Positions 40 through 64,000 of a stretch of DNA of 64,000 bases are shown here, piece after piece (the stretch's first letter is position 1; each line of letters begins with the position of its first letter). The notes beneath the pieces were generated by a model, which was not told the origin of the DNA, did no database searches, and saw only the letters and a program-made list of their open reading frames with translations. Location: assembly GCA_020137815.1 (NCBI GenBank), contig CM035361.1, positions 1,488,001 through 1,552,000 on the forward strand, written 5' to 3'. The translations under genes and the position numbers were made by a program. The DNA comes from Hormiphora californensis (taxonomy: Eukaryota > Animalia > Ctenophora).

Positions 40-2479
40 GTGGGCTCCAACTACAGTATAACCAACATTTACTGGTGTGAACTGAGCAGCGGGCTAAAGA
101 TCAAGAATACTGGAATACTACTGGCTAGCCTCTCTTTCAGCTTCGGAGCAGGGTAATAACAAAGATTTAGCTGAACTGAAATCAAAGATTTGAAGTGGAT
201 TTCGGATAAAAGTTTCCCACATCATCATCAAGGAAGATGGAGTCATTGCCTTCTTCTTCTTCTTCTGGGAGGACGCTGGCTAGTGCGAAGCACTAGCCAG
301 TAAGGGGTGGGTGCCATGAGGCTCCCGTTCCCCGTCCTGGGTGGTGTGGCTGGTATGTTGCCAACTGCTTCGGCCCAAGGAGGACTTGGGGAGCTGGTGC
401 CATACCAAGTCACAGGGAAACCTCCCTTTAAGGGGTGGTTTCAGGGGGGTGAAGTATCTCCATCGCCTTCTTATAGCAACGAGATCGTTTTTCTAAGGGG
501 TTGATGGTGTCATAATTTCGTACATGCTGAGGCCCCAGCCTGTCAAAGGATTCCTGTCGGAGTTTCCAAAGGGCGGGGCATTCAGTTAGTACATGCTTAT
601 TGTCCTCGTCTTCCCATCCCACATGCTGCACAGGTTGTGGTCTCGACTTTTTTTAATTTTTTCATGTGGTAGTTAAGGTGGCAGTGCCCTGTGAGTAGGT
701 GTGTCGCCGCCCTTAGGTCTGTTCTATTAAGTTTTTGAAGAGGTCTCTCATATCTTTCGGTCCACATCATGTCCATATGTTTGGTTTGTTTGATGGGTCC
801 GGTTTTAACCTTCTCCCTGAGGGCTGCATAGGCTGCCGCTTTGGGAATTGGTATGAGAGTAACTTCTTCGATTTCCTGAGCACCCCTTTTTGCCAAGATG
901 TCTGCTATTTCGTTTCCATCGTACCCTTGATGGGCCGGGATCCATCTAATCATGACATCGTTGAATATGGCCAGGGTGTTCAGATTTTTGATAGTCTTTA
1001 TCGTGGTTTTTGATCTGCATGTCGTGGAGTCTAGGGTCTTTATTGTCCCTTGACTGTCACAGTTTATGAGTATTCGCTCGTTAGCTGTTCCCCTATCCAG
1101 GAGATATTGAGCCGTCTGTTGTATGGCATACATTTCTGCCGCCGGGACAGTTCCTTCGGGGCCTAGGTTATACGAATTTCGAGCTAGCTCTGTTTCGCCA
1201 GAGTGGATAATGTATCCTGCACCGGCATTGTTGTTAATTTTTGACCCATCAGTGTGTGCAACTATCGTGTACTTGTCTCCATCCTCCAAAAACGTCTCCC
1301 TTTCTGGGATCTCTAACGAGAATTCCCTGTCTAGGGTGAGTTCCGGGGTTGTGAGATCGTGACATCTGCCCTCTGCTTCCAGAGTTCTGAGATCACGTGA
1401 TACCGTGTTGGCATGCGAAGTGAACACTTTTGGGGTCTTTAGGTCTGATTTTATTGGCCCTTCCCATTCCTCCCGTTGCCATTAGGGTGTATGCAGTTTT
1501 GGCTGCACAGTACCTCAGATGGTCGGTGATCGGGGCGGTGTTTGTGATTGTGTCTAGGGCTGTTGATGGCGTCGAGGGCATGGCCCCAGTTACCATCTTG
1601 AGTGCTAGCCTCTGTACCCTTATCATGTTTTCTTTGTTTGTTTTGGTTCGCATTGCATTAGCCCAGACCATTGCCCCGTAGCATAAGGTGGGTCTCACTA
1701 TTGCAGTGTATATCCATAGGGCCGTTTTAGGGTTTAGTCCCCACGTGGGTCCCACCACTTTACGGCACTGCATCAGGATATTTTTTGCTTTTTTTATTTG
1801 TTTGTTTACGTGCTCGTTCCAGTTCAGTTTGCTGTCAAGGGTAATCCCTAGAAACTTCGTGGATTCGGACACTTTGATAGGGTTGCCCTGAATTTTGATC
1901 GGGTTTCCAATTTTCACATTTTTTCGATGGGTGAATATGACTACATGCGATTTCAGGGCACTTAGTTTGAGCCCTACTGTCTTACACCAGGCGTTTATGG
2001 AATTAAGCCCCTTCTGGGTCGCGTCCCTTAGAGGGAGTATGTCCGCAGAGGGTCCATTTCTTCTTCATTGCCATTGTTGCCAACCACTCCTCTCCTCAGG
2101 TATACCTCTCTATTAGCCTGGTGGATACTCCAACCCCTGGGTTGGCGAACCTTCTTCATCCTCTCGTCCCTCCCTCTCTTCATCACCCCTCTCCTATCCT
2201 TCATATTCATCCTCCCTACCAGCCCAGTTTGGCTGGCCTCCAAATCCTCCACCACCTCCACCTCTAAGAACCCCATTCTATCCAGTTCCGTGTGGATTAA
2301 ACTCCTAATAGCTGCATTATCGTTTGTGTATCTGGTGAACATTGCACAGGGATGGGGGCTGATTCTCTTTGTCCCGGAGGTTTACCAGAGAGAGAATGAG
2401 GGATTGGGACAGAATGATGAGGGTTGCAATGGGGTGTTCGGGGTGGAGCTTCTCAAGATGACTGCTATATCAGGTGAGT

Positions 2480-14513: not shown

Positions 14514-15104
14514 GGGTACACCTGGCGTTTTTCATCATCGAGTGCCCAACCAAATGACTTCACCAGGGTGACCTCAAATATGCAATTTTAGCCCTAAAGT
14601 CGAATTCATATTTTTGCTACAGCCTATTTTCAAAGTGGCGTTTTTTCAATTTTTGTTGAAATTTTTAACCTCAGGACCACTTTTTTTGAGATAGAAACAT
14701 TAAATTCTTGGAATTTGAAGAGAATATAAAGGTGAATAAGCCCAAAGAAGGATTTTTGAAATGGAGCTTATTTCTGGCCATGAGAACGGTTTACTTTTTT
14801 GCTTCTTTGACACGCTGGCTGAGAATGTTCCCATGCTTCATTAGAGATGAAAATCTGGAAATAGTTGCTCAAAACGATTATCTATGTGGCCCAAAAATTT
14901 TGGAACTTTCCCGCCAAAGATGTGGTGTACAGAGCTTTTTTTGTGAAACCTGTCTTTTTGAAAAAGAGGGAAATTCCCTGTATCTCAAAAACGGATGATC
15001 ATAGAGACCTGGGACCAAGCTTAATCGATTCAGAAGGTCCGATTTTGGGGGGGTCTTCTGAGAGACATTTTGCTCCTACTCCAACCGATTTTGCTGTAAT
15101 TGCG
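14514..15104. mobile_element. Single arm of the Kolobok-like foldback family (see 42855-44244)
   Basis: Starts TTAA|GGGTAC and shares blocks with that element (gacctcaaatatgcaattt..., gattcagaaggtccgattttggggggg...). Confidence 0.8.
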
Positions 15105-23549: not shown

Positions 23550-24868
23550 ACACTGTCAGTGACAGGGATGGGAGGACTGTTCCCCCTTTCCGACTAAACA
23601 GAGAGACAATTTCGGAAGCGGGAGCACTTCTCAAATAATACAGTACGTTTATCTCCTTTTCAGAGTTAACTAATTAACTAATTAGTTCTTGGTAGTAACT
23701 AATTAGCAAGAAGTTACACATTAGATCGTGCATCTCTTGGTTCTGCATTAGTGTGTGTTTTGAAGTTGAGAGGCTCACTCTCAGGCTGGGAATCCATTGC
23801 TGAACTGGTTTTAAAGTGCAATTGGGGCCTTGACTAGTTGACCGTTCCGGGTTGAATTATGTGAAATGCAATTGGTTTGATAACAGACATAATTGTAGAT
23901 GCATTATACATGTTTTAACATGTTGTACCTACAAAAAAGAGAGAAAGAAGATTTATTTTGTTATATCTGACGGACTAATTGTCAGTTTTAAATGTATAAA
24001 ACAAGTATATTTATCTTACAACATCATTATTAAATAACTGCGTAATTGTTAACTTTGTACAATTGGTTAATGGTAAACTTCGTAGTCAAATTCGTTGACA
24101 GGAAACTTCAGCTTCCCTGGCTCTGGTCTTTACCGTGCAAGGTGAGGGCCAGGGAAGTGGAACTCCTGAGCTCCATCGTTTATTGAATTTGAGGACTGAA
24201 GAGCGTTCCTGAGAGCTCAGAAGAGGCGTTGACTCTCCTTCTCGATAAACTAGAGTCGAGGGAGGGCAATCAGTATCTAAAACTGAACCTGTCAATGGAA
24301 TACCAACAGAAGAATTTGGCAATAACGTAATGCGCGAAATATAAATAAGATACACTGCGCGCCGTCAATGCAACTTGGACCGTGCGCGTAACAAAATTCA
24401 ACTCTTAAATTTAAAAAAATAGGGGGGGGGCCGGCTGAAGTTTTTGAAGTTTGAAGTTTTCCACCCTACTTTTTGAGATTTTGAAGTTTTTGAAGTTGAC
24501 TTCCATTCTCCCTAACGTTCTCACTTCTCAGACTGGAAATAACTGTGCTCAAACTACAATGATAAAGTTTATTGTACTTTCTTTCCCTAACTTCATTGTC
24601 TCAGTTGTCAATAAACTTCCATCAACTTAGCACCACCTGTCCTTGTGAGAGCAGCACACCATCTGTACAAGCTCAGTAATTCGCTCCCGAGTTGTAGCCC
24701 CGGTGCCGACTGCGGGGTTGCAACCTCCATGCCTAATACGCGACCCATTACACTTAGCCCGTCGCCAGCTTCATTCTGTGCAAGTTTAATTTGAGCGGTT
24801 CACGTTTGAACGCATCACGTAGCTCGCACTGGAGGCTAATTATCTATATTTACAGCACATGACAGATC

Positions 24869-26437
24869 ATGGTAGCGGAGTGTACCCTACCAATGAACTT
24901 TGGCAGGCACCTTCTGGATCTGAAAGGAATTAACGACATTGAATTCACCTGTGCAAATGGTGAAGTTGTAATGGCAAGTTCGGGTTTAATGGCCTTAAAC
25001 AGCGAACTGGTGTGTGACCTGGTGGGTAAACAGTTGGTGAAGGCTCTTGATCTGGAGGAGTTTAGTCGGGCATCTGTGTGTTGTCTCGTGGAGTCTTGCT
25101 ACACAGGATCTGTAACTGTCACACGGCAAAATTTCCGAGAGATCAACAAAGTGAGTGCCGTGTTCAAAGTACCATGGATGATACAGGAATGTCTGAAGTT
25201 CTATACCTCTCTCTGCTCCGGGTTGACATTTAAATCTTGTGACGTTACCTGGTTTTTATTTGAAGAAGCGGCCTACATCCTCAAGGAGAGAAACAGTAAG
25301 GAACTACAAGATGCTCTTTGCACTGGATTATCCGGTTTACCAAATCTCCAGCTGGCTCTCGTCCAAGAATTCCTGGTTCGTGATCCGGTTCAGCTTTGGC
25401 CAGTGTGCACTGATCTTTGTTTGGCACTGGCAGGGAATGCAACACCAGCACTCTTCACAGGTCTCGTTGACATGATCGAGATCAGGCCCAAGCCTGTGAA
25501 GTTAAGTGAGGTGGAGAATAGGTTCTTGCAGACACAATCACTAACGGCATGCTTCCAAGAAGACCCGAGGGTTTACTCCAAGTTGATGAAAACGCTCCAA
25601 ACATCTCTTTCAAAGGAGGATCTTGGGTCTCTGTGTGCTACATTCAATGAGGTTCTCTTCCTTGCTACTGGTGGATTTCCTGATGAGGCTACCGGATCTG
25701 AGACACTGCAACTTGAGAAACCGCAACTTGAGATTGTGTACCCGGTTGAAATTATTTCTGATCTTAATAAATGTACCACTTGGTTTGAAATTATCGTGCT
25801 AGTGAATAATCACCCTCGAATCCAATCGTGCAACCAGTTTTTAACCAGTCTAAAGCAGTGCGATATGTTAGCAGGAGTTAAACTTGAATTTGGTAGTGCT
25901 GCTGTGGTTACCAATGCACTGAAAGCAGCGATAAACAAAAGGAATCCTCGCTACTTTCTGGTGGAGTTTTTGACGCAGAAATCTAACTTAAATACGGCCC
26001 TAGAGAAGGTCAAAGGAAATACTGACTCGGAGAACTGCTTCTGTGTGTCGAAAAGTTGTGATGAGTTGGTCTTTGAGACAAAGAATATGGTCTTCCCGTT
26101 TGAGAAGTCACAAAACGTGTTCCTTGATTTATGTTCGGAAAACAATGTTAAATACCTGATTGGAATAAACGTTTCCGTTGTCATGAAGGATTCTACAAGT
26201 GCTCCTGTGATTACCATCAAGTTAATTACCGATAAATCACTGTTAAAAGCTCAACAAGGTGTTAAATTTCTCCAGGAGCCAGCTGTTTTGAAGCATCTTT
26301 GTGTCAGATTCCGAAGGGATATTTCAGGTGGACCTGAGCCGTACATAATCAACAAATTCCCGTTCGAAAAACCTGGCACTTATAAACTTTATATTTTCTG
26401 GCCACATTTCGAAAAACACGATTATGGGCCATGTTAA
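24869..26437 (+). CDS. Intronless BTB/POZ-domain protein (522 aa)
   Basis: N-terminal BTB signature DIEFTCANGEVVMASSGLMALNSELV...LDLEEFSRASVCCLVESCYTGSVTVTRQNFREINKVSAVFKVPWMIQECLKF. Acceptor tttacag 13 nt upstream of the ATG; AATAAA at 26461. Confidence 0.9.
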   Translation: MVAECTLPMNFGRHLLDLKGINDIEFTCANGEVVMASSGLMALNSELVCDLVGKQLVKALDLEEFSRASVCCLVESCYTGSVTVTRQNFREINKVSAVFKVPWMIQECLKFYTSLCSGLTFKSCDVTWFLFEEAAYILKERNSKELQDALCTGLSGLPNLQLALVQEFLVRDPVQLWPVCTDLCLALAGNATPALFTGLVDMIEIRPKPVKLSEVENRFLQTQSLTACFQEDPRVYSKLMKTLQTSLSKEDLGSLCATFNEVLFLATGGFPDEATGSETLQLEKPQLEIVYPVEIISDLNKCTTWFEIIVLVNNHPRIQSCNQFLTSLKQCDMLAGVKLEFGSAAVVTNALKAAINKRNPRYFLVEFLTQKSNLNTALEKVKGNTDSENCFCVSKSCDELVFETKNMVFPFEKSQNVFLDLCSENNVKYLIGINVSVVMKDSTSAPVITIKLITDKSLLKAQQGVKFLQEPAVLKHLCVRFRRDISGGPEPYIINKFPFEKPGTYKLYIFWPHFEKHDYGPC

Positions 26438-36600: not shown

Positions 36601-36742
36601 ATCTCACACGAGCCTCCCTCCCAGGTACATCCTGAAACTGGCCTTCACGGGCAAGAAGAGTATGCCAACTGGAGACAAACCCAACAGCAATAACGGAGCT
36701 TCAGCCACTTCCGGTGGTGATGGAGGAAGCAAGGACGATTGA
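30654..36742 (+). CDS. HNRNPL: Heterogeneous nuclear ribonucleoprotein L-like (4 RRMs with a Gly/Arg-rich linker); ~15 exons
   Basis: ANHVLAVNVLKPLYPITT | EVLHTIASPHGKILRIVI...LVEF; GADIYAGCCTLDVEFS | LNVFKNDDDTYDYT; VLMVHGLEPKMNPMRLFNILCMYGDVNK | IKFLMTKKGIAMVEM; TPQKAAKNR...KVLHFF; GLLEF...ANH; YILKLAF. Stop codon at 36740-36742. Confidence 0.93.
31435..31541 (-). mobile_element. Second copy of the CCAAT/E-box MITE, in an HNRNPL intron
   Basis: Reverse complement of 23441-23549 with a few substitutions. Confidence 0.85.
32855..33791. mobile_element. Mariner-type non-autonomous element in an HNRNPL intron
   Basis: TIR TTAGGTTGTCCCAGAAAGAATGTCGTGT at both ends, TA duplications. Confidence 0.92.
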
Positions 36743-36962
36743 GAGAGAGAAAAGAGAGAAAAGAGAGAGAGAGAGAGAGAAAGACTGCAATTAGCAGATA
36801 ATATGTATGTGTGTGCTGAGTGTTGTGTGTGTTTTATTTTATCTGAATTTTAATCTCTTAAGATTTTTGTTCTATTTTTTGCCACAAGCTAAAGAGAACC
36901 TAATTTTCTGCAATGCTCTAGAAATATTGAAATTTTTAGTTTTTTTGGTGTACGGTATCGTG

Positions 36963-37232
36963 GAAATTTTGTGAGTTGACCGTACTCACTGTAGCATCAG
37001 CCTAATCAGCTACACGGCTATGGGACTCTGATCATGCACAGGAGAGATAGTGCATGATCAGAGCAGGCACAGAGAGCTCAGTGGATTGTCAGGAACTTCC
37101 AATAGAAAGATCCTGAAAATCACAATGAGCTCCCCCCATAGGGGTGAGGGGACGGAGGAGGGGGGAGGTATAAAATGAGGTTCATCACTCCTCAGGCTCC
37201 TCACGCTCCCCTTACTCCTCCGTCATCCTCGG
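36963..37232. other. ~270-nt multi-hairpin element, copy 1
   Basis: Stems GTGAGT/ACTCAC and TGTAGC/GCTACA; CTATGGG/CCCATAG encloses CTCTGATCATGCAC/GTGCATGATCAGAG and GAGCTCA..GATTGTCAGGA/TCCTGAAAATC..TGAGCTC; then GACGGAGGAG/CTCCTCCGTC with inner GGGGAG/CTCCCC and TGAGG/CCTCA. Confidence 0.85.
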
Positions 37233-37297
37233 TAAAATGTCTTGTAAAATCTCGATCTTGGTATTGATCCGGTTGGTGGGCACAGGATTCCATGTGT

Positions 37298-37395
37298 AAG
37301 TAAGGGGTGGGTACTGGGTGCCATAAGGCTGGTATGTTACCAAGCTGCTTCGGCCCAAGGGGACTTGGGGAGCTGGTGCTATACCAGGTCACAGG
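37298..37395 (-). mobile_element. Fragment of the 3' UTR of the LINE at 251-2064
   Basis: Aligns to 299-416 (gtaaggggtggg...ggctggtatgtt..ctgcttcggcccaagg..gacttggggagctggtgc.atacca.gtcacagg). It interrupts one of two duplicated blocks (37241-37435 vs 37534-37625). Confidence 0.85.
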
Positions 37396-37707
37396 CTGTG
37401 CCAGTTTCCTCTCACTCTATTTGAACTACGGTGTACAGCTCTTCAGTTCTCTGCTCCTGGGGCTGCTCCGTTGGAATTTCTTCGGAATTCTGCTCCACAG
37501 GTGGTGCAGCAGAGAGAACAGTGATTATGCTGTCTTGTAAAATCTCGATCTTGGTATTGATCCGGGAACAGGATTCCATGTGTCAGCTGTGCTAGGTTCC
37601 TCTCAATCCTTTTGAACTACGGTGTCAGTGCAGTAGTGGGTTCACCCTCGATAAAATCGTGTGGTAGTCAGGCTAGGTCTCCATGGTGTAGGTGGTAAAA
37701 TTACTGA

Positions 37708-38022
37708 TTACTCGAGATCGAGTACAGTTTGGGCTGGTTCTTCCTCGGATTTCAAATGGTTCTGGTCCGTATTCTCGGGTCCATTTAACTCCGTTTCCAC
37801 GATCATTTGGAGCTTGTTAAGGGAGTCTGTAACATGTTTCAACATTTTCTGTGATCAGGTTGGAGTTTGTGGCAACTGTCCTTGCTGCCTCAACATCAGC
37901 TTGATACATGGGTAGCAGGCGGTCACTTGCATTCCGGTCTTCTTGATGAGCAACAGTCCTGCCACCATAATGCCGGTTAAGATGACAAGGGCTGCTGCCA
38001 GTATGAGTGCTTCGGCTTCCAT
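37708..38022 (-). pseudogene. TM + coiled-coil orphan family, copy C (frameshifted, internally deleted)
   Basis: MEAEALILAAALVILTGIMVAGLLLIK / LLPMYQADVEAARTVATNSNLITEN / HVTDSLNKLQMIVETEL...TVLDLE*. Confidence 0.8.
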
Positions 38023-38084
38023 TGTTGAGATTGGTTGTATCTTCGAGAGAGTAACGAAAACGTAACGAAATGAGCGAAGCAAGC

Positions 38085-38555
38085 GGGGGTTCTCTTCTGG
38101 ATTGCTTGGTACATTGGTAACAACCGGTCTTTTGCGTTTGAGGCCTTGTTCCTCCTCAACAGGTCCCACGAAGAGCACCGTCTCAGCAGATCGGACTGGT
38201 TCCAGTTTGTAGTCCGAGGACTTGGAACTAGAGTAATAGTGGTCGATACTTCAAGAGACTCAATGATAGTCTGAGTCTCAGACGTCATGTAATTTGGCCT
38301 CTTTTTCTTCAATTCAGTCTCCACTATGGTCTGCAGTTTATTGAGGGAATCGGTTACGTGTTCGAGCCTTTTCACGATATTGGTGGTAATCAGTTGTGTG
38401 TTGGAAGCCATAGTTTTAGATGCCTCAAGATCCGCAGCATACATGGGCAGCAGCATGTCATTGGCCTTGCGGAGTCTTGATGTATAGTAGGCCTGCTACC
38501 ATTATCACAGTCAGATCAGCAGGGCTGAAGTGAGTAGTATGGTTTCTTGGTCCAT
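38085..38555 (-). pseudogene. TM + coiled-coil orphan family, copy B (frameshifted)
   Basis: MDQETILLTSALLI / TVIMVAGLLYIK / MLLPMYAADLEASKTMASNTQLITTNIVKRLEHVTDSLNKLQTIVETELKKKRP / VLFVGPVEEE. Confidence 0.82.
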
Positions 38556-38659
38556 GGTTTTGTTTCTGGAAAAGTTTTGAAGAGCTTCAAATTCGAAACG
38601 AAATCGGTTGAACGAGCGGGGGATAGACGCCGTCGTTTTGGATGCCTCTATATCCGCAA

Positions 38660-38860
38660 CTGATCCACGATCATTTGGAGCTTATTTAGTGAATCAGTCA
38701 GGTGTGCAAGTCTTTTAGCTTTCGGCTATGAGGTTGGAGTTGGTAGCCACGGTTTTGGCGGCCTCCGAATCAGCTTAATACATTGGTAACAACCGGCCAT
38801 TTGCGTTTCGTAATGTGATCTTGATGTCTTCACAGCCAGTAGATCAAACAACAAAATATC
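38660..38860 (-). pseudogene. TM + coiled-coil orphan family, copy D (fragment)
   Basis: LPMY*ADSEAAKTVATNSNLI...DSLNKLQMIVD. Confidence 0.7.
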
Positions 38861-39235
38861 AAGCGCAATATCGTTTATTACTTGAACTATCAAATCTAAA
38901 TTGTTTTCTAACTGCTCCTTCATAAACACAAATATTAAAAGTACTTTATTTCATTTTCATAGTTGTATTCACAGTTAACTTTTGGGAGTTTGTGAATATT
39001 TCAGAAGATATTTTAGCGATTCAGTCTTCATGGTTACCGATACAGCTGCCATGGCAACAGTAAAAATTGGCGTTTAAGGGTGACTCGGTGGAGCTGGGTT
39101 GGTCTATCGTCAGCCCCGGTGGGTGTGCTAGTCTATTGAGACCAAGCACAAGTCGTTAGCTTCGAGAGATAATTGGATAATTAATAATGCACATTGTATA
39201 ACCGTTTTTAATGATACGTATCTTACGTATCGATA

Positions 39236-39652
39236 CGGCTATTAGCAGCTCGGGACCGGTTTTAGCGATTTTTCTTCATTGGAGCTTGTTCGTATAAGAT
39301 TAGTGGGCATGACAATGATCATGAAGTTGCTATTGCATTATTATGGTCAATGCGTTATAGGGGTCCAGTTACATATTGAGACCCTGATATCAGCCCGCTG
39401 CTGACACTGTGTGTCACGCAACTCTCCATACAGTTTACATGGAAATCCCTGTCGCGTGACCACAGATACGACACAAAGCATGGTTCACGCCGACCCCCGA
39501 CCCCATCTAGAACGTGTGCCCGGGCACCAGCTGATATCGGGATCCAAAACTACAACTGGACCGTAATACAAACTCACAAAACGAGAGCAAACATTCGAAT
39601 TAGCTCCAATGAAGAAGAATCACTAAATCCGCTCCTGAGCAGCCGCCAGCCC
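39236..39652. mobile_element. Degenerate foldback MITE
   Basis: Inverted blocks ttcttcattggagct/agctccaatgaagaa, ggtccagtt/aactggacc and gatatcagc/gctgatatc. Confidence 0.7.
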
Positions 39653-39728
39653 TCGTAGTTGATTAGATGGCAACTTGTGTCTAATTCGATTCTGCTGGTC
39701 ATTCTACACAGTTTTTATGCCTTCGTTT

Positions 39729-40120
39729 CAGGGCTCTCCAGGGGGTGGTGAGGGGTGTGTGCACCCCCCCCCCCCAAAAAATTTTAGCAGCAGACCATTT
39801 GGATTGGCAAACCACCCCAAAAATACAAAAATCTTACACATGGGGAAATTCTAAACGAATTCCAGAACAAGAAAACCCGAAGGGTAGCCCTGTGATTTAA
39901 ATTTAAATTCAATCTTCATTCTTCATGACTATTTATTCCAAAGAAAAATAAAAAGCATTCATAAATCTAGAAAGTAGACGTCACAAATGATTAAAAACCC
40001 TAAAATTTGCTTGATTTAGTTAAAAAATGCGCCCCAAACCCCCCCCCCCCCCCCCCCCCCCGGGAACAGTGGCCTTCGGCCATTGCGCCCCCCAGAAACA
40101 TCGGACTGGAGCCAGCCCTG
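39729..40120. mobile_element. hAT-like MITE
   Basis: CAGGGCT...AGCCCTG termini; flanks CTTCGTTT and CTGCATTT match 6/8, consistent with a decayed 8-bp TSD. Confidence 0.55.
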
Positions 40121-40211
40121 CTGCATTTCACTCACTTTAGTCACTGAAGTGGATATATTATTATGCACTACTTTCTTAAAATTGAAATTTAGTAGTGTCG
40201 ATGCCATACCC

Positions 40212-40476
40212 CTAGAAATTTTGTGAGTTGACCGTACTCACTGTAGCATCAGCCTAATCAGCTACACGGCTATGGGACTCTGATCATGCACAGGAGAGCC
40301 GAGAGATAGTGCATGATCAGAGCAGGCACAGAGAGCTCAGTGGATTGGTTAGAAAGATCCTGACAATCACAATGAGCTCCCCCCATAGGGGTGAGGGGAC
40401 GGAGGAGGGGGGAGGTATGAGGTTCATCACTCCTCACGGGTAAAATCACGCTCCCCTTACTCCTCCGTCACCCTCG
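40212..40476. other. Multi-hairpin element, copy 2
   Basis: Near-identical to 36963-37232, with most stems retained. The minus strand ends hairpin-AAAATTT-CTAG. Confidence 0.85.
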
Positions 40477-40556
40477 GTAAAATCGTGTGGACATCAGTTT
40501 CCGTGGTGTTCGTAAAATCTTGTGTTGTGCAGTGTTTCCACTGTCCATTATACTGA

Positions 40557-41072
40557 TTACTCGATGTCGAGTACAGTGTTTTCCTCTCCGGATTTTTGTC
40601 CGGGTTCGAGGGGGTTCTGGGAATCCTCAGAATCAGGTTCTTGCTCCTCCCCAGTGGGTCCAACGTAGATGATAGTCTCGACGGATCGGACTTGTTCCAG
40701 CCGAGGACTAGGGACCGGGCTCGTCACAGGACTCATGACAGGGGTCATGGATGTACAAGACTCCATTGATTCTATCAGAGTCTGTGAGCCTGAAGTCATC
40801 ATAATGGGGCGCTTTTTCTTCAACTCCATTTCAACAATCGTCTGGAGTTTAGTGAGGGATTCGGTGACATGTGCCAGCCTCTTCATCACATTCTCCGTGA
40901 TCAGGGTGGAGTTGTCTGCCACGGCTTTGGCCGCCTCCACGTCAGCTTTGTACATCGGCAACAAGAGTGCGTTAGTTGACTTTATCGTTGCTCTAATCTT
41001 TACCAGTCCTGCCACCATAACACAGGCCAGGATGACAAGTGATATCGTTAAGATAATGCTGTCTGGATCCAT
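40557..41072 (-). CDS. TM + coiled-coil orphan family, copy A (intact, 171 aa, intronless)
   Basis: MDPDSIILTISLVILACVMVAGLVKI (N-terminal hydrophobic helix), a heptad-like segment to ...VEMELKKKRP, then an S/T-P-rich and acidic tail. Conserved at the amino-acid level with copies B-D. Confidence 0.8.
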   Translation of the reverse strand: MDPDSIILTISLVILACVMVAGLVKIRATIKSTNALLLPMYKADVEAAKAVADNSTLITENVMKRLAHVTESLTKLQTIVEMELKKKRPIMMTSGSQTLIESMESCTSMTPVMSPVTSPVPSPRLEQVRSVETIIYVGPTGEEQEPDSEDSQNPLEPGQKSGEENTVLDIE

Positions 41073-41089
41073 CTTTCGGGTTTGTGGTT

Positions 41090-41275
41090 TGTCTTTGACA
41101 GAGCGTTGAAAACGAAACGTAATGTGGATAGCAAACGGGGGATAAGTTCTGCACGTGCAAACAAACACACAAACTGGGTGAATTATTGTTGCTATAGCAA
41201 CACGTGCAGATGGGTCCTGCCTTCTTACAATCACCCTCAGTCAGTTAAACACCCAGCACTTCAATTTCAAACAAG
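41090..41275 (-). promoter_or_regulatory. Conserved upstream region of the TM-CC gene, with an RFX X-box flanked by two E-boxes
   Basis: GTTGCTATAGCAAC at 41188-41201; CACGTG at 41152 and 41201. The same block recurs inverted at ~63805-64000. Confidence 0.65.
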
Positions 41276-41758
41276 CCAGAATCAAAATAGAAACTTTCAG
41301 ATATCTATAATTTTCAGAAAATGGTGTTTTTAATCTGACATCTGTCATTTAACTACAAGGTAGCTCAGTAAGTTTCACAGTGAAACTTTCACTATGTTAC
41401 TAAGGTCTAAGTGTACTGTGTATTTACTAAGTGAGCACTGAGCTTCCTTTCTTTGCCATGCTATGTCCCAATTGGCCCACTTTTTTAATGTACCCATGCA
41501 CTAAAACGTAGGGCGCGAAACCGTCGTTACGATACAAGGACCAACAAGTTCGCGCGCTGTAAACTTATCCCGCGCAGTGCCTGATTGGTGTTGGTAAGGG
41601 CCTCCGATATTTACTATTCTGAGTTTGGGCACGTCGCGCAATCCCCTGACCCCTGTACGTCTCCGACGTCATTGGCAGCTTCGTTGCCAAATTCTGATTC
41701 CCAACTTCGAATTAGATTGTAACTCCCATTAACATTTTTCCTCCTCTAGCGAACAGTC

Positions 41759-42506
41759 ATGGAGAATAAGAAGGCAAACAGCAACTGTGCTACGCAAACA
41801 GAAAATCCTTCATACTGTTCAACTTCAACTGGAAATTCCAGTAGAATGGAGATTAAGAAGAGCAACTGTACTACTGAAACAGCAAGTTCTCCCTGTCCTT
41901 GGTGTAGATTCAAGTGTACACCTAACCAGCCTAATACCACTCTCGATCTCGACCAAGAACTGTGTGCACCATGTAAAAGTGAGTTTCTGGTGGCATCTCC
42001 CGAGTCCCGGTGGGTTTGTTGAGTAAGGGGTGGATGAGATGAGACCCCCGAGACACAGTGAGATGGAGACAGGATGAGATAGAGACAGAGTGAGATGGGG
42101 ACAGCATGAGATGGAGACAGATTGAGACAGAGTGAGATAGAGACAACTTGAGATAGAGACAAAGTGAGATGGAGATCTGAAGGAGAGACACGAAAACAGA
42201 TCCCTAAATTTGTGATTCTACTAGTTTTATATGTATGTATTAGGGTCCATTAAGTCTGTGGCAAAACGGAGTTGTTCGCTAAATTGTGCAGAGGGTACAA
42301 CACAACATCTAATAAATGTCTTTCCAGGAGAGGCAAACATGAAGATGGAAAAGGATCAAGTGGCCCAAAGTCTGGTTGCTATACTCCGGAACAACTTTCG
42401 CTGTAGAGGGGAAACTGATGAGGAAGGGCTCTACAGGGTTAGATCTGGTTTAATGGAGATGACCGCAAAGTACCTGGAAGAATTCAAGGCAAAACGTGGA
42501 TTATAG
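41759..42506 (+). CDS. Small two-exon orphan gene (132 aa) with CxxC...CxxC and a TQT motif
   Basis: Exons 41759-41978 (donor A|GTGAGT) and 42328-42506 are in phase. CPWC...CAPC; ATQTE. Confidence 0.6.
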
Positions 42507-42720: not shown

Positions 42721-42854
42721 GGATTAATCTGGATTGTTTATCTTGTTTATTATGATTTTGCCCTAGAGTATGACAAAAACATTCAGCAAACACTGTTTCT
42801 TGTTTCAGAAAAAAAGACATCGTTAAAAGAGAATCTGATGAGGATACGACTTAA

Positions 42855-44244
42855 GGGTACGCTAACCAAAATTTTTTTTCGAGTGCAGGGAAATCTCTCA
42901 CCGTAGGGTTGTAGGCCATGCCAAGGAGACCTCAAATATGCAATTTGAGCTCTCAAGTCGAATTCATATTTTTGCTACAGCTGCTTGAAAAATGAACTGA
43001 AAATAAGTTTTTGGCATCTTAAAAATACATTTGTAAAGATAGGATCATAAAAATTTGTGGATTTGAAGAGAACAAAGAGGTGAGTAGCCACAAAAAATGT
43101 TTTTGAAATCCGAGCTGATTTCCGGTCCTGAGATGGATTTCTTTTTTTTGACTTTAACGCCATATTTGGCCAAGTTCCGAAAATATGTGAAAGCTGTAAA
43201 TTGGTCAAAAGTTGCGTCTAACGATTCTCCATATGGCCATAAATTTTGGGCGCGTCCTTATTTGAGATAAGCTGTACAGAGGTTTTTTTGTGAAAGCCGT
43301 CATTTCAGAAATAAATAAATTCCCTGTATCTCAAAAACGACTGATCGTAGAGACCTGAGACTATGCTTAAACGATTCAGAAGGTCCGATTTTGGGGGGGT
43401 CTTCTGAGAGACATTTTGCTCCTACTTCAACCGTTTTTGCTGTAATTGCGAAAAACAAAAATCCATCTTCGCCATCGTGGATTTTTTGTGATTTTGTTTT
43501 TGGTGATTATAGGGACCCATATGGACCAAATAGTGAAGAAAGTAGCTTGTTACACATTTTTCCATAGTTTCGGTCCTTTCTTAGCTAAAATTCCCTAATT
43601 ACAGGATATTGGATTTTAGCTTTTGCCCTTTTCATAGAATTTGTTTTTCGCAATTACAGCAAAAACGGTTGAAGTAAGAGCAAAATGTCTCTCAGAAGAC
43701 CCCCCCAAAATCGGACCTTCTGAATCGTTTAAGCATAGTCTCAGGTCTCTACGATCAGTCGTTTTTGAGATACAGGGAATTTATTTATTTCTAAAATGAC
43801 GGCTTTCACAAAAAAACCTCTGTACAGCGTATCTCAAATAAGGACACGCCCAAAATTTATGGCCACTTAGATAATCGTTAGACGCAACTTTTCACCAATT
43901 TACAGCTTTCACATGTTTTCGGAACTTTGCCAAATAGGGCGTTAAAGTGGAAAAAAAGAAATCCATCTCAGGACCGGAAATCAGCTCGGATTGCAAAAAA
44001 AATTTTTGTGGTTATTCACCTTCATGTCCTCTTCAAATCCCCAAATTTTCATGCTCCTATCTTTAAAATAATTTTTTTGAGATGCCAAAAACGTATTTAC
44101 AGGACATTTTTTAAACAGCTGTAGCAAAAATATGAATTCGACTTAAGGGCTAAAATTGCATATTTGAGGTCTCCTTGGCATGGCCTACAACCCTACGGTG
44201 AGAGATTTCCCTGCACTCGAAAAAAAATTTTGGTTAGCGTACCC
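42855..44244. mobile_element. Kolobok-like foldback element with ~600-bp inverted arms
   Basis: TTAA|GGGTACGCTAACC...GGTTAGCGTACCC|TTAA; arms at 42855-43460 and ~43643-44244. A TTAA TSD with purine-purine termini fits Kolobok rather than piggyBac. Confidence 0.9.
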
Positions 44245-44546
44245 TTAATACTCATAGTTAATTAGCAGCTGTTATCAGCGTGGAGCTCCCAAGTCCCAGC
44301 TCAACCAAAACCAAGCAATGGAATCACAGACTCGAATCATTTCCCCTCATTTTTTATCTTTTTCATTTCACTTTTTATTTCTTTAAATTCTTGTTTCAAT
44401 ATTTTCACTATCATAATTCCTAACCATCTACACCTTGCAGTCAGATAAGTTACCCCCATACCCCCTCCCCCCCCCCCCCCCCCCTCTTACCTCTTACTTC
44501 CAACACACTCTTCCATTTGTAGTTGCTAGATAGTTGTTACCAAATA

Positions 44547-62752: not shown

Positions 62753-63309
62753 GGAGATATAGTTGATTTATCCCTTGATATATGGGATCAGTGGTTTAAA
62801 GTTGTGTTTGCAGTGCGGAGAGAGACAATAATTTTGATACCGAGATAATTGACAGCTGCTATTTGATTGGAAAAAGACAATTTCGCAGCTTTATCTGTTT
62901 ATTTATGAAATGTTTTGCCCGAATTGAATTCGCGGGGAGAAAATTATTATTTGGAGCCGAGAAAATAATGGATGGCAGTTGTTTGTTGGAAATGTGCTGA
63001 TTTGCTGCGGTTATTTTACTAGATCTCGGCAAGAGACGGTGTGTACATATATCATGTTTTGTTGTGTGTGTCTTACACACTTAAATTAATTTCCAAAATA
63101 ATGAAAAACGGCCTTTTCTTTATTTGAGAATGGAAACCTAACTCCTGCGGATCTGAGGGCCGTAGCTGAGCCCGGAAACATTGTCTCAGCTCACGAAAGA
63201 CTCGAGTACCGAATATTGGTAATTTTAGTCTTTAGTTTTTTGGCACTTGTCTGTCATTATCAGGTTCAGCTGTCAGTTGTCTAGACTCTAGCGTCGACAG
63301 ACAACTAAA

Positions 63310-63436
63310 GTGTAAGCGAAACAACAACGAACTGGCTGCGCGTCCCGCAACGTTGCGCATGTGAATCTCTCCGGTGAGATCGTTATGCGCAACGAATGCG
63401 CGACGCGCAGCCAGTTCGTTGTTGTTTCGCTTTCAC
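63310..63436. mobile_element. Palindromic mini-MITE
   Basis: ~50-bp inverted arms aagcgaaacaacaacgaactggctgcgcgtc / gacgcgcagccagttcgttgttgtttcgctt; flanked by CTAA and TTAA. Confidence 0.85.
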
Positions 63437-63804
63437 TTTAACGAACCGTCTCTTTATTATTTATTTATTGTCACTCTGACAGATGTTCTCCATTTGACAA
63501 CTTCCAGTCGCGCGCGTCAATGAGGCGCGTAGTTTTGCGCCAAGAAATCAACATAACAGTTACCGCGCGCTACTGCAAGTTGTGATTCTGGTTCACTACA
63601 GTGTAAGTTCCGGTGGAGAATATTGATGATACAGCTGGTAACGAGATGGGGCAGTGGGTCATAGAGGCAGTGATGGCATTATGGCAAATTGATTACAACC
63701 CCGACAATTTATACACAATGTCAACAAAGTTCCCCAAAATTCAATGGACTGTGAAACATATTCATTCCAAATCCAATCTGAATATTATGTAAACCTGTCA
63801 CTGG

Positions 63805-64000
63805 TGTGAAATTGAAGTGCTGGGTGTTTAACTGACTGAGGGTGATTGTAAGAAGGCAGGACCCATCTGCACGTGTTGCTATAGCAACAATAATCCACCC
63901 AGTTTGTAAGTTAGTTTGCACGTGCAGAACTTATCCCCCGCTCGCTTACTACATTTCGTTACGAATTTGAAGCTCTTCAACACACAAGAAACAGGACACG
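63805..64000 (+). promoter_or_regulatory. Promoter/5' UTR of another TM-CC cassette copy; ORF expected just past the window end
   Basis: Reverse complement of 41090-41275 (X-box GTTGCTATAGCAAC at 63875-63888, two CACGTG) and of the 5' UTR at 38560-38625. Confidence 0.8.

What the first reader, a model, noticed from the sequence alone, without database searches (positions are those of the whole stretch)
36963..41280. Amplifying orphan cassette: X-box promoter, TM + coiled-coil gene, GATTTTAC repeats and a multi-hairpin terminus
Seen: a ~1.1-kb minus-strand unit, intact at 40212-41275, is present as rearranged head-to-tail copies B, C and D at 36963-38860 and begins again in opposite orientation at 63805. 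Copies are intronless, share a 5' UTR (ccccgc...tttcg/cgtt...ctct) and encode diverged but alignable proteins (MVAGL, LPMYxAD, HVTD/ESLxKLQxIVExEL). Two copies end at the same point in the same folded element. I recognise no transposase, RT or known family. Inference: either an undescribed non-autonomous mobile or viral-derived cassette with a membrane-protein cargo (the architecture recalls tetherin-like or small fusogen/holin-like proteins), or a fast birth-and-death host family under ciliary/sperm RFX control. This is my best candidate for a new system in the window.
Basis: partly seen in the sequence, partly recalled or inferred. Interest (0 to 1): 0.8.

Follow-up and report, generated by a model that had tools for sequence, protein, structure and literature searches.

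The report
Comb-jelly orphan genes with hairpin tails
A comb jelly carries an undescribed family of short, intron-free genes whose membrane proteins are predicted to bind the dynein light chain LC8; neighbouring copies have near-identical promoters and multi-hairpin tails although their coding parts diverged long ago, and they are most likely host genes that duplicate and decay rather than a new jumping element.

Summary
One intact gene (A) has an RFX X-box promoter, a 171-aa ORF and a ~270-nt five-hairpin 3' end (fold z about -7). A chain of broken relatives (D, C, B and two overlooked F pieces) lies beside it, and a further start (E) is at the window edge. Twelve homologues exist, two of them from Pleurobrachia bachei; none matches a known family or a virus. 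The copies diverged under purifying selection (dN/dS about 0.1-0.2, dS at least 1.4). The promoter box can be read upstream of homologues at only 30-46% identity. All 8 members that reach the position keep an LC8-type [ST]QT motif. The mobile-element reading failed its tests: 5' homology is ragged, other copies run past the 'shared end' into a sixth hairpin, and there is no TIR, TSD or Helitron end. Best reading (0.6): a lineage-restricted birth-and-death host family with a pseudogene cluster. Unexplained: near-identical ends around saturated ORFs, and junctions at the module borders, which leave LINE-driven RNA copying open. No whole genome and no RNA holder were available. The scan had not noted this family on other DNA.

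The parts
41136..41269 (-). Promoter module of gene A: CACGTG (41201-41206) abutting the X-box (41188-41201), second box TGCACGTGCAG (41149-41159), ending at TATCCCCCG
   Evidence: 88 nt identical to E, 130 of 134 identical down to CCCCG; second box readable upstream of 4 of 6 homologues with N-terminal extensions
41073..41135 (-). 5' UTR of A with the CGTT-type motif shared with B, C and E
   Evidence: alignments; identity to E drops here
40557..41072 (-). Intact ORF A, 171 aa: TM residues 6-24, helix to residue 86, SQT at 96-98, SP/TP-rich acidic disordered tail, C-terminal VLDIE
40484..40556 (-). Proximal 3' UTR of A with GATTTTAC copies (40512-40519, 40477-40484; third at 40440-40447 in hairpin 1)
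40223..40478 (-). Five serial hairpins: H1 40393-40475, H2 40332-40380, H3 40277-40323, H4 40242-40266, H5 40223-40241
   Evidence: 252 matches, 7 substitutions and 27 gap positions against the copy at 36963-37238
40195..40215 (-). 5' arm of a sixth hairpin whose 3' arm is missing in A
   Evidence: loose ends at 40195 in 2, 3 and 3 contigs of X2, X6 and X7; 11 of 14 inverted match to 36947-36960
38663..38843 (-). Copy D: no promoter, TM part missing or unalignable, in-frame stop and frameshift, cut after IVDQ
38626..38658 (-). 33-nt junction piece of C-type coding sequence
   Evidence: 26 of 33 identical to C
38146..38625 (-). Copy C: starts at TATCCCCCG (E-like 5' UTR), frameshifts in the TM region and near 38208, keeps TQT, 3'-truncated
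38104..38139 (-). 36-nt junction piece of D-type coding sequence
   Evidence: 32 of 36 identical to 38773-38808
37642..38099 (-). Copy B: starts at the CAG of the second box, frameshifted, lacks the middle of the ORF, ends just inside hairpin 1
   Evidence: joint 37783-40702 in other copies
37239..37641 (-). Two F-type remnants (C-terminal coding piece 37530-37412, like P0002/P0003; duplicated 3' UTR) with an embedded LINE 3' UTR piece at 37327-37395
36947..37238 (-). Second hairpin terminus H1-H5 plus the 3' arm of H6 (36947-36962)
63801..64000 (+). Copy E: promoter module and 5' UTR, running off the window

Best explanation
This is most likely a host multigene family of a Pleurobrachia-like comb jelly, in which gene A is intact and the D-C-B-F chain is a cluster of broken paralogs. 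Shown: the unit anatomy, purifying selection on the ORFs before they broke, an old conserved promoter box, a strongly folding 3' end, and further copies in two samples and in a second organism. Inferred mechanism: RFX with a bHLH factor would switch the genes on in ciliated cells or sperm. The protein would sit in a membrane by its N-terminal helix with the tail in the cytosol, and would bind LC8 through [ST]QT, so dimerising or coupling a membrane to dynein or ciliary machinery, tuned by SP/TP phosphorylation. The hairpins and GAUUUUAC boxes would control the fate of the mRNA (localisation, translation or 3' end). Copies likely arise by DNA-level duplication and die by deletion and frameshift, while selection plus gene conversion keeps promoters and tails alike.
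For: dN/dS about 0.1-0.2 in 5 of 6 pairs among A, B, C and D (dS 1.4-2.8, dN 0.19-0.29; sixth pair dS saturated), with third positions most changed in all 6. 12 homologues at 34-65% identity among 1.84 billion representatives, all 66-244 aa; 2 of 12 are named Pleurobrachia bachei proteins, 10 are unnamed ENA contigs. Upstream peptides of 4 of 6 N-terminally extended homologues are the three reading frames of GCACGTGCAG, against 0 hits in 1947 body residues; P0013 also shows the E-box/X-box junction. [ST]QT in 8 of 8 distinct members that reach the column, 5 TQT and 3 SQT; TQT is the LC8 anchor (PMC6607443, passages). TM in 9 of 13 distinct members, 8 of the 9 with an acidic flank before and a basic flank after. 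The X-box fits the GTTRCY palindrome, and RFX is up-regulated in ctenophore ciliated cells (10.1101/2022.11.11.515474, passages). Ragged 5' homology and no sharp common 3' end. Weak homology continues about 50 nt past the hairpins in A and the B side (10 of 2333 and 13 of 971 composition-matched windows score as high). A second array with terminus and D-upstream flank adjacent is indicated by joints in X2 and X6.
Against: The ends are far more alike than a plain duplication history predicts: 88 nt identical between the A and E promoters, and 7 substitutions in 259 aligned terminus positions, beside ORFs at dS of 1.4 or more; conversion is assumed, not shown. The junctions of B and C fall at the promoter/5' UTR border and those of B and F at the 3' UTR/hairpin border, with 33-36-nt coding inserts and a LINE 3' UTR piece, which simple deletion explains poorly. 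The hairpins fold almost equally on both strands and as DNA, so an RNA role is not singled out. In one diverged terminus only 7 of 13 listed substitutions avoid predicted pairs (P=0.10), and no compensatory pair could be seen. Many TQT peptides do not bind LC8, and a hydrophobic +2 residue, as in A, is unfavourable. No AATAAA follows A's terminus.
Confidence: 0.6

Rival explanations
1. The family spreads through RNA: a LINE reverse transcriptase would grip the hairpin tail, and the D-C-B-F chain would be one cDNA concatemer made by serial template jumps between family mRNAs, RNA fragments and the LINE's own RNA.
For: B and C begin within about 8 nt of each other at the promoter/5' UTR border and lack the promoter. 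A LINE 3' UTR piece (93% over 70 nt) lies inside the chain; that LINE encodes RNase H. Summed depth is highest at the last two hairpins in all 3 runs that cover the unit. A non-LTR RT can copy several templates end to end in vitro (PMC8594491, passages). All copies seen are intronless.
Against: No poly(A) tail after A and no TSD longer than a chance 6-mer. Flank homology continues past the hairpins. Copies with a full upstream promoter exist and need DNA-level copying unless the promoter is internal. The depth gradient is also what diverged paralogs and overlapping contigs would give, and the tool says depth is no copy number.
Confidence: 0.22
2. A non-autonomous rolling-circle (Helitron-like) or other DNA element carries the gene as selected cargo, with the conserved ends as transposase signals.
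For: Ends much more conserved than the middle; hairpins at one end; a CTAG 7 nt after H5 in A; fragment mosaics.
Against: None of 6 candidate 5' limits starts with TC; the CTAG is internal to hairpin 6 and is followed by G; the best exact inverted match between the ends is 8 nt, below the 12-17 nt used for HLE2. No longer or fused homologue among 12 hits. ORF lineages are deep, not a recent burst.
Confidence: 0.1
3. The unit is a gene or genome segment captured from a virus (a membrane-anchored LC8 adaptor, as some large DNA viruses have) and then multiplied in the host.
For: Intronless and compact, with shared structured ends. ASFV p54 has a TM domain and binds LC8 (PMC5894393, passages).
Against: 0 matches in 4 scans of viral contigs; no BFVD match at E<=0.001 (a one-helix model is a weak probe); the only named homologues are ctenophore proteins; long-term purifying selection in the host lineage.
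Confidence: 0.06

Closest known systems
Lineage-restricted birth-and-death multigene families with conversion-homogenised flanks (e.g. fission yeast wtf genes; recalled, no call)
   Same: Diverged membrane-protein ORFs, many pseudogenes, conserved non-coding flanks
   Different: No sequence relation; single TM, no introns, no flanking LTRs; no evidence of drive; a ~290-nt multi-hairpin tail
LC8/DYNLL client proteins with a TQT anchor (PMC6607443, passages; PMC3078936, search listing)
   Same: [ST]QT just after a long helix, in a predicted disordered region; threonine or serine at -4 in most members
   Different: No lysine at -3; SQT in 3 of 8; hydrophobic +2 in several; binding untested
African swine fever virus p54 (E183L) (PMC5894393, passages)
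   Same: Small protein with a TM domain and an LC8-binding motif; a functional analogy only
   Different: No sequence or fold match to viral proteins; host-type promoter; multigene family
Helitron-like elements HLE1 and HLE2 (PMC11417382, passages)
   Same: Hairpin at one end, conserved ends, mosaic interiors
   Different: No 5' TC, no terminal CTRR, no A|T or T|T site identified, no 12-17-nt terminal inverted repeat
Template-jump cDNA concatemers of non-LTR reverse transcriptases (PMC8594491, passages)
   Same: Head-to-tail chain of different templates, with units starting at a possible RNA 5' end and a LINE piece inside
   Different: Shown there in vitro only; here no tail or TSD, and flanks seem to travel with copies

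Membership tests
Birth-and-death host multigene family | Diverged paralogs under purifying selection | tested here: met
   dN/dS about 0.1-0.2; 30-65% identity among members
Birth-and-death host multigene family | Pseudogenes beside intact members | tested here: met
   B, C and D broken and confirmed by contigs of two samples; A intact
Birth-and-death host multigene family | Duplication with flanks, ragged ends | tested here: inconclusive
   5' limits at five places; weak 3' flank homology; no whole genome
Birth-and-death host multigene family | Expression of intact members | not testable with these tools
   no RNA holder listed
HLE1 (Helitron) | 5' TC start | tested here: not met
   0 of 6 candidate limits
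HLE1 (Helitron) | 3' hairpin followed by a terminal CTRR, inserted in A|T | tested here: not met
   CTAG at 40212-40215 is inside hairpin 6, is followed by G, and is absent on the B side
HLE2 (Helentron) | 12-17-nt terminal inverted repeats with the hairpin after the right repeat | tested here: not met
   longest exact inverted match 8 nt, lying beyond the hairpins; 16 nt at 81%
HLE1/HLE2 | Autonomous RepHel partner with the same ends | not testable with these tools
   no genome held
LINE-mobilised retroposon | TSD and poly(A) or simple tail at a fixed 3' end | tested here: not met
   only 6-mer chance repeats; A has no tail; an A7 run on the B side only
LINE-mobilised retroposon | Loss of the upstream promoter, start at the RNA 5' end | tested here: inconclusive
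   true of B and C if the RNA starts near 41150, which is unmapped; A and E keep the promoter
Endogenous viral element | Homology to viral proteins or genomes | tested here: not met
LC8 client | Conserved TQT-type anchor in a disordered region | tested here: met
   8 of 8 members; pLDDT under 50 from residue 94
LC8 client | Binding to LC8 | not testable with these tools
RFX target gene | Palindromic X-box near the start site | tested here: met
   41188-41201 and 63875-63888 against the consensus; start site itself unmapped
Tetherin, holin or fusogen | Family profile or fold match | tested here: not met
   no Pfam hit at cut-off in 15 of 15 rows; PDB best E 0.22
Known structured RNA (ribozyme, snRNA, tRNA, miRNA) | Rfam or ARAGORN match at family threshold | tested here: not met
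   best Rfam score 31.9 bits against a gathering score of 60; 0 tRNAs

The most novel reading that the evidence does not exclude
A selected protein-coding cassette family that travels as RNA: the six-hairpin tail recruits a LINE reverse transcriptase, which strings different family mRNAs into head-to-tail concatemers, while ORF cassettes are exchanged between a shared RFX promoter module and a shared tail at fixed border motifs (CCCCG and GATTTTAC). That would be a SINE-like amplification and shuffling system for a ciliary or germ-line dynein adaptor in a comb jelly.
Probability: 0.17. Interest if true: 0.75.

Novelty: new variant of a known kind. Interest (0 to 1): 0.42.

Why it matters
Ctenophore-specific genes under RFX control are candidates for what makes comb plates, sensory cilia or sperm distinctive. 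A family of predicted membrane-anchored LC8 clients gives a direct test (peptide binding, localisation). The conserved tail is a large structured RNA candidate with no Rfam match. If the RNA route proved true, it would be a protein-coding gene family amplified like a SINE. If not, it is an ordinary process acting on an unusual orphan family.

Tried and rejected
No whole genome is held, so genome-wide boundary, TSD and partner searches could not be run. No RNA holder was listed; run X9 (RNA only by guess) laid one contig on an unrelated repeat; neither counts for or against expression. Organism C (X8) laid 0 contigs, no proof of absence. Word-indexed protein searches were insensitive: 0 hits and 1 hit, although 12 homologues were known. 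The alignment was too variable for a locus scan. Metagenome contigs: 0 for the H5 pattern; 0 of 133 candidates confirmed. Viral contigs: 0; 0 of 16 and 0 of 45 candidates confirmed. ESM Atlas gave no usable hit. The homodimer prediction gave no answer, score 0.03, and is not used as evidence. Silent-cassette gene conversion into A (vlsE/pilE-like, recalled) was rejected: the longest exact run between A and B, C or D is 17 nt, the best 30-nt identity is 25 of 30, and A's ORF differs only by scattered substitutions between samples. [quoted passage not shown] The tree of 15 rows (P0012-P0014 left out) is mostly unresolved, 1 of 12 inner branches starred. Literature: searches returned 0 papers and one search returned 4 whose titles and abstract starts are unrelated; no supplements were read, and gene lists in them could name this family.
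Full report
Setting. No whole genome was available. The organism is inferred to be a Pleurobrachia-like ctenophore, because the only named homologues of ORF A are two Pleurobrachia bachei proteins; unchecked notes on the same genome also say comb jelly. The cluster is intergenic. It lies tail-to-tail with an RRM_5 (hnRNP L/PTB-like) gene ending near 36740 and head-to-head with another gene beyond 41480.

Observation. ORF A (40557-41072, minus strand, 171 aa) is intact and intronless. D, C and B carry stops or frameshifts. These are real: an X2 contig of 1033 nt matches 37536-38568 with no difference, and X6, from another study, holds the same pieces. The promoter block recurs inverted at 63801. 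The terminus folds at z -7.0 and -8.1, while the ORF and promoter do not (z from +0.6 to -1.8). GATTTTAC is enriched: 8 in the window against 2.83 expected, 5 of them in these 3' ends.

The protein. phmmer over 1.84 billion representatives gave 12 hits, 34-65% identical and 66-244 aa long, none fused to anything larger. No Pfam family reaches its cut-off in 15 of 15 rows. PDB, BFVD and the ESM Atlas gave nothing usable. The model is one helix (residues 3-86) followed by disorder. Nine of 13 distinct members have the N-terminal TM segment; the other four start after it or lack it. Eight of the nine have an acidic flank before and a basic flank after, which by the positive-inside rule (established knowledge) puts the tail in the cytosol. 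All 8 distinct members that reach the column carry [ST]QT right after the helix (5 TQT, 3 SQT); five fragments do not reach it. TQT is the LC8 anchor, but the same paper warns that many TQT peptides do not bind and that a hydrophobic +2 residue is unfavourable (PMC6607443, passages). LC8 binding is therefore a prediction.

Selection. Counting only gap-free codons, dN is 0.19-0.35 and dS is 1.4 or more in all 6 pairs among A, B, C and D, and third positions change most in all 6. The 21 differences listed for organism B in ORF A split into about 11.5 synonymous and 9.5 non-synonymous, against 123 and 390 sites; this is a partial list, with 75 rows not shown, and may include paralogs. The copies were coding for most of their history and are not products of one recent burst: A, B, C and D are 58-74% identical as proteins.

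The promoter is old. Gene callers extended several homologues upstream of the true start, and these extensions show the DNA. STCR (P0003), CTCR (P0013), ARAD (P0014) and MHVQ (P0004) are the three frames of GCACGTGCAG, and P0013 also has ARVA, the E-box/X-box junction. That is 4 of 6 extended proteins; the other two have short extensions; background is 0 in 1947 residues. These four are 30-46% identical to A. The X-box matches the RFX palindrome, and RFX is reported as up-regulated in ctenophore ciliated cells (10.1101/2022.11.11.515474, passages).

The ends. Contigs were laid from 4 of the 9 listed runs in each of two calls (X2, X6, X7 in both; X9, then X8). At the 5' side other contigs leave A at 41211, 41269, 41283, 41321 and 41332; one X7 piece may be A's own orthologue. 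At the 3' side some leave after H5, while 2, 3 and 3 contigs of X2, X6 and X7 follow A to 40195 and then supply the missing arm of a sixth hairpin. The B-side copy has that arm and lacks A's (11 of 14 inverted match), so the shared end at 40215/36963 results from two different deletions. No TSD beyond 6-mers, no inverted end match beyond 8 nt and no TC start were found, against the HLE1 and HLE2 definitions in PMC11417382 (passages). Single contigs of the promoter and terminus have about 3, 4-5 and 13 times the depth of single-copy contigs; summed depth is about 8-10 times at the promoter and 50-70 times at H4-H5. The tool warns that summed depth is no copy number, so 'some tens of copies at most' is an estimate. 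In organism B an 81-nt aligned piece of the terminus has 0 substitutions and 5 gap letters, while a 231-nt piece over the 5' UTR and ORF start has 30 differences.

What is unexplained. A and E share 88 identical nt, and 130 of 134 down to CCCCG, after which identity falls; the two termini differ by 7 substitutions from ATTTTAC onward, while the 3' UTRs before them are much more diverged. The junctions of the broken chain sit at these same borders: C begins at TATCCCCCG, B at the CAG just before, B ends just inside H1 and F1 ends at a GATTTTAC box. Between units lie 33- and 36-nt coding pieces, and F carries 70 nt of the 3' UTR of the LINE found at window 348-416. This is what serial template jumping by a non-LTR RT could give (PMC8594491, passages; in vitro). 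Against it, flank homology seems to continue past the hairpins (about 0.4-1.3% of matched windows score as high), and joints in X2 and X6 point to a second, DNA-duplicated array. Folding does not decide between RNA and DNA (RNA -118.9 versus -114.1 kcal/mol for the two strands; DNA -58.9 versus -63.0), and substitutions in one diverged terminus avoid stems only weakly (7 of 13 unpaired, P=0.10).

Verdict. A real, undescribed, lineage-restricted gene family with an unusual structured tail; most likely host genes in birth-and-death (0.6), with RNA-mediated copying as the main rival (0.22), a Helitron-like element (0.10) and viral capture (0.06) less likely. Searches found no description; supplements were not read. 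Look-ups of earlier scan notes by sequence, relatives and words found nothing on this family. The wtf, vlsE/pilE and Sm-site comparisons are recalled and come from no call.

Noticed in passing
window 260-2100 (-): Frameshifted LINE remnant with an RNase H domain, a folded 3' UTR and a (GAA)n tail; a 70-nt piece of this UTR sits in the array, and depth there is very high in three runs.
   Followed up: partly
window 38994-39164: High-depth repeat containing an X-box-like palindrome at about 39041-39062, some 200 nt upstream of promoterless copy D; it might be a mobile source of RFX sites.
   Followed up: no
window 42851-44248 and 14563-15104: Foldback element with ~610-nt arms at 93% identity, and an older relative at about 74-76%.
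   Followed up: no
window 39245-39643 and 39732-40120: Two small inverted-repeat elements between A and D, one with a long poly-G run.
   Followed up: no
window 41759-42022 (+) and 44546: Cys-rich ORF of the gene divergent from A; it has its own TQT (ATQTE), no Pfam hit, and a similar start recurs at 44546.
   Followed up: partly
window 24863-26437 (+): Uninterrupted 524-codon frame with an N-terminal BTB domain.
   Followed up: partly
window 63306-63440: 135-nt foldback about 360 nt upstream of copy E.
   Followed up: no
window 40215-40225 (+): On the antisense strand AAUUUUG lies between hairpins 6 and 5, a layout like an Sm site between stems (consensus recalled); no Rfam support.
   Followed up: no
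window 40632 and 40635: The window differs from both X2 and X6 at two synonymous positions of ORF A, so it holds another allele or assembly letters.
   Followed up: partly
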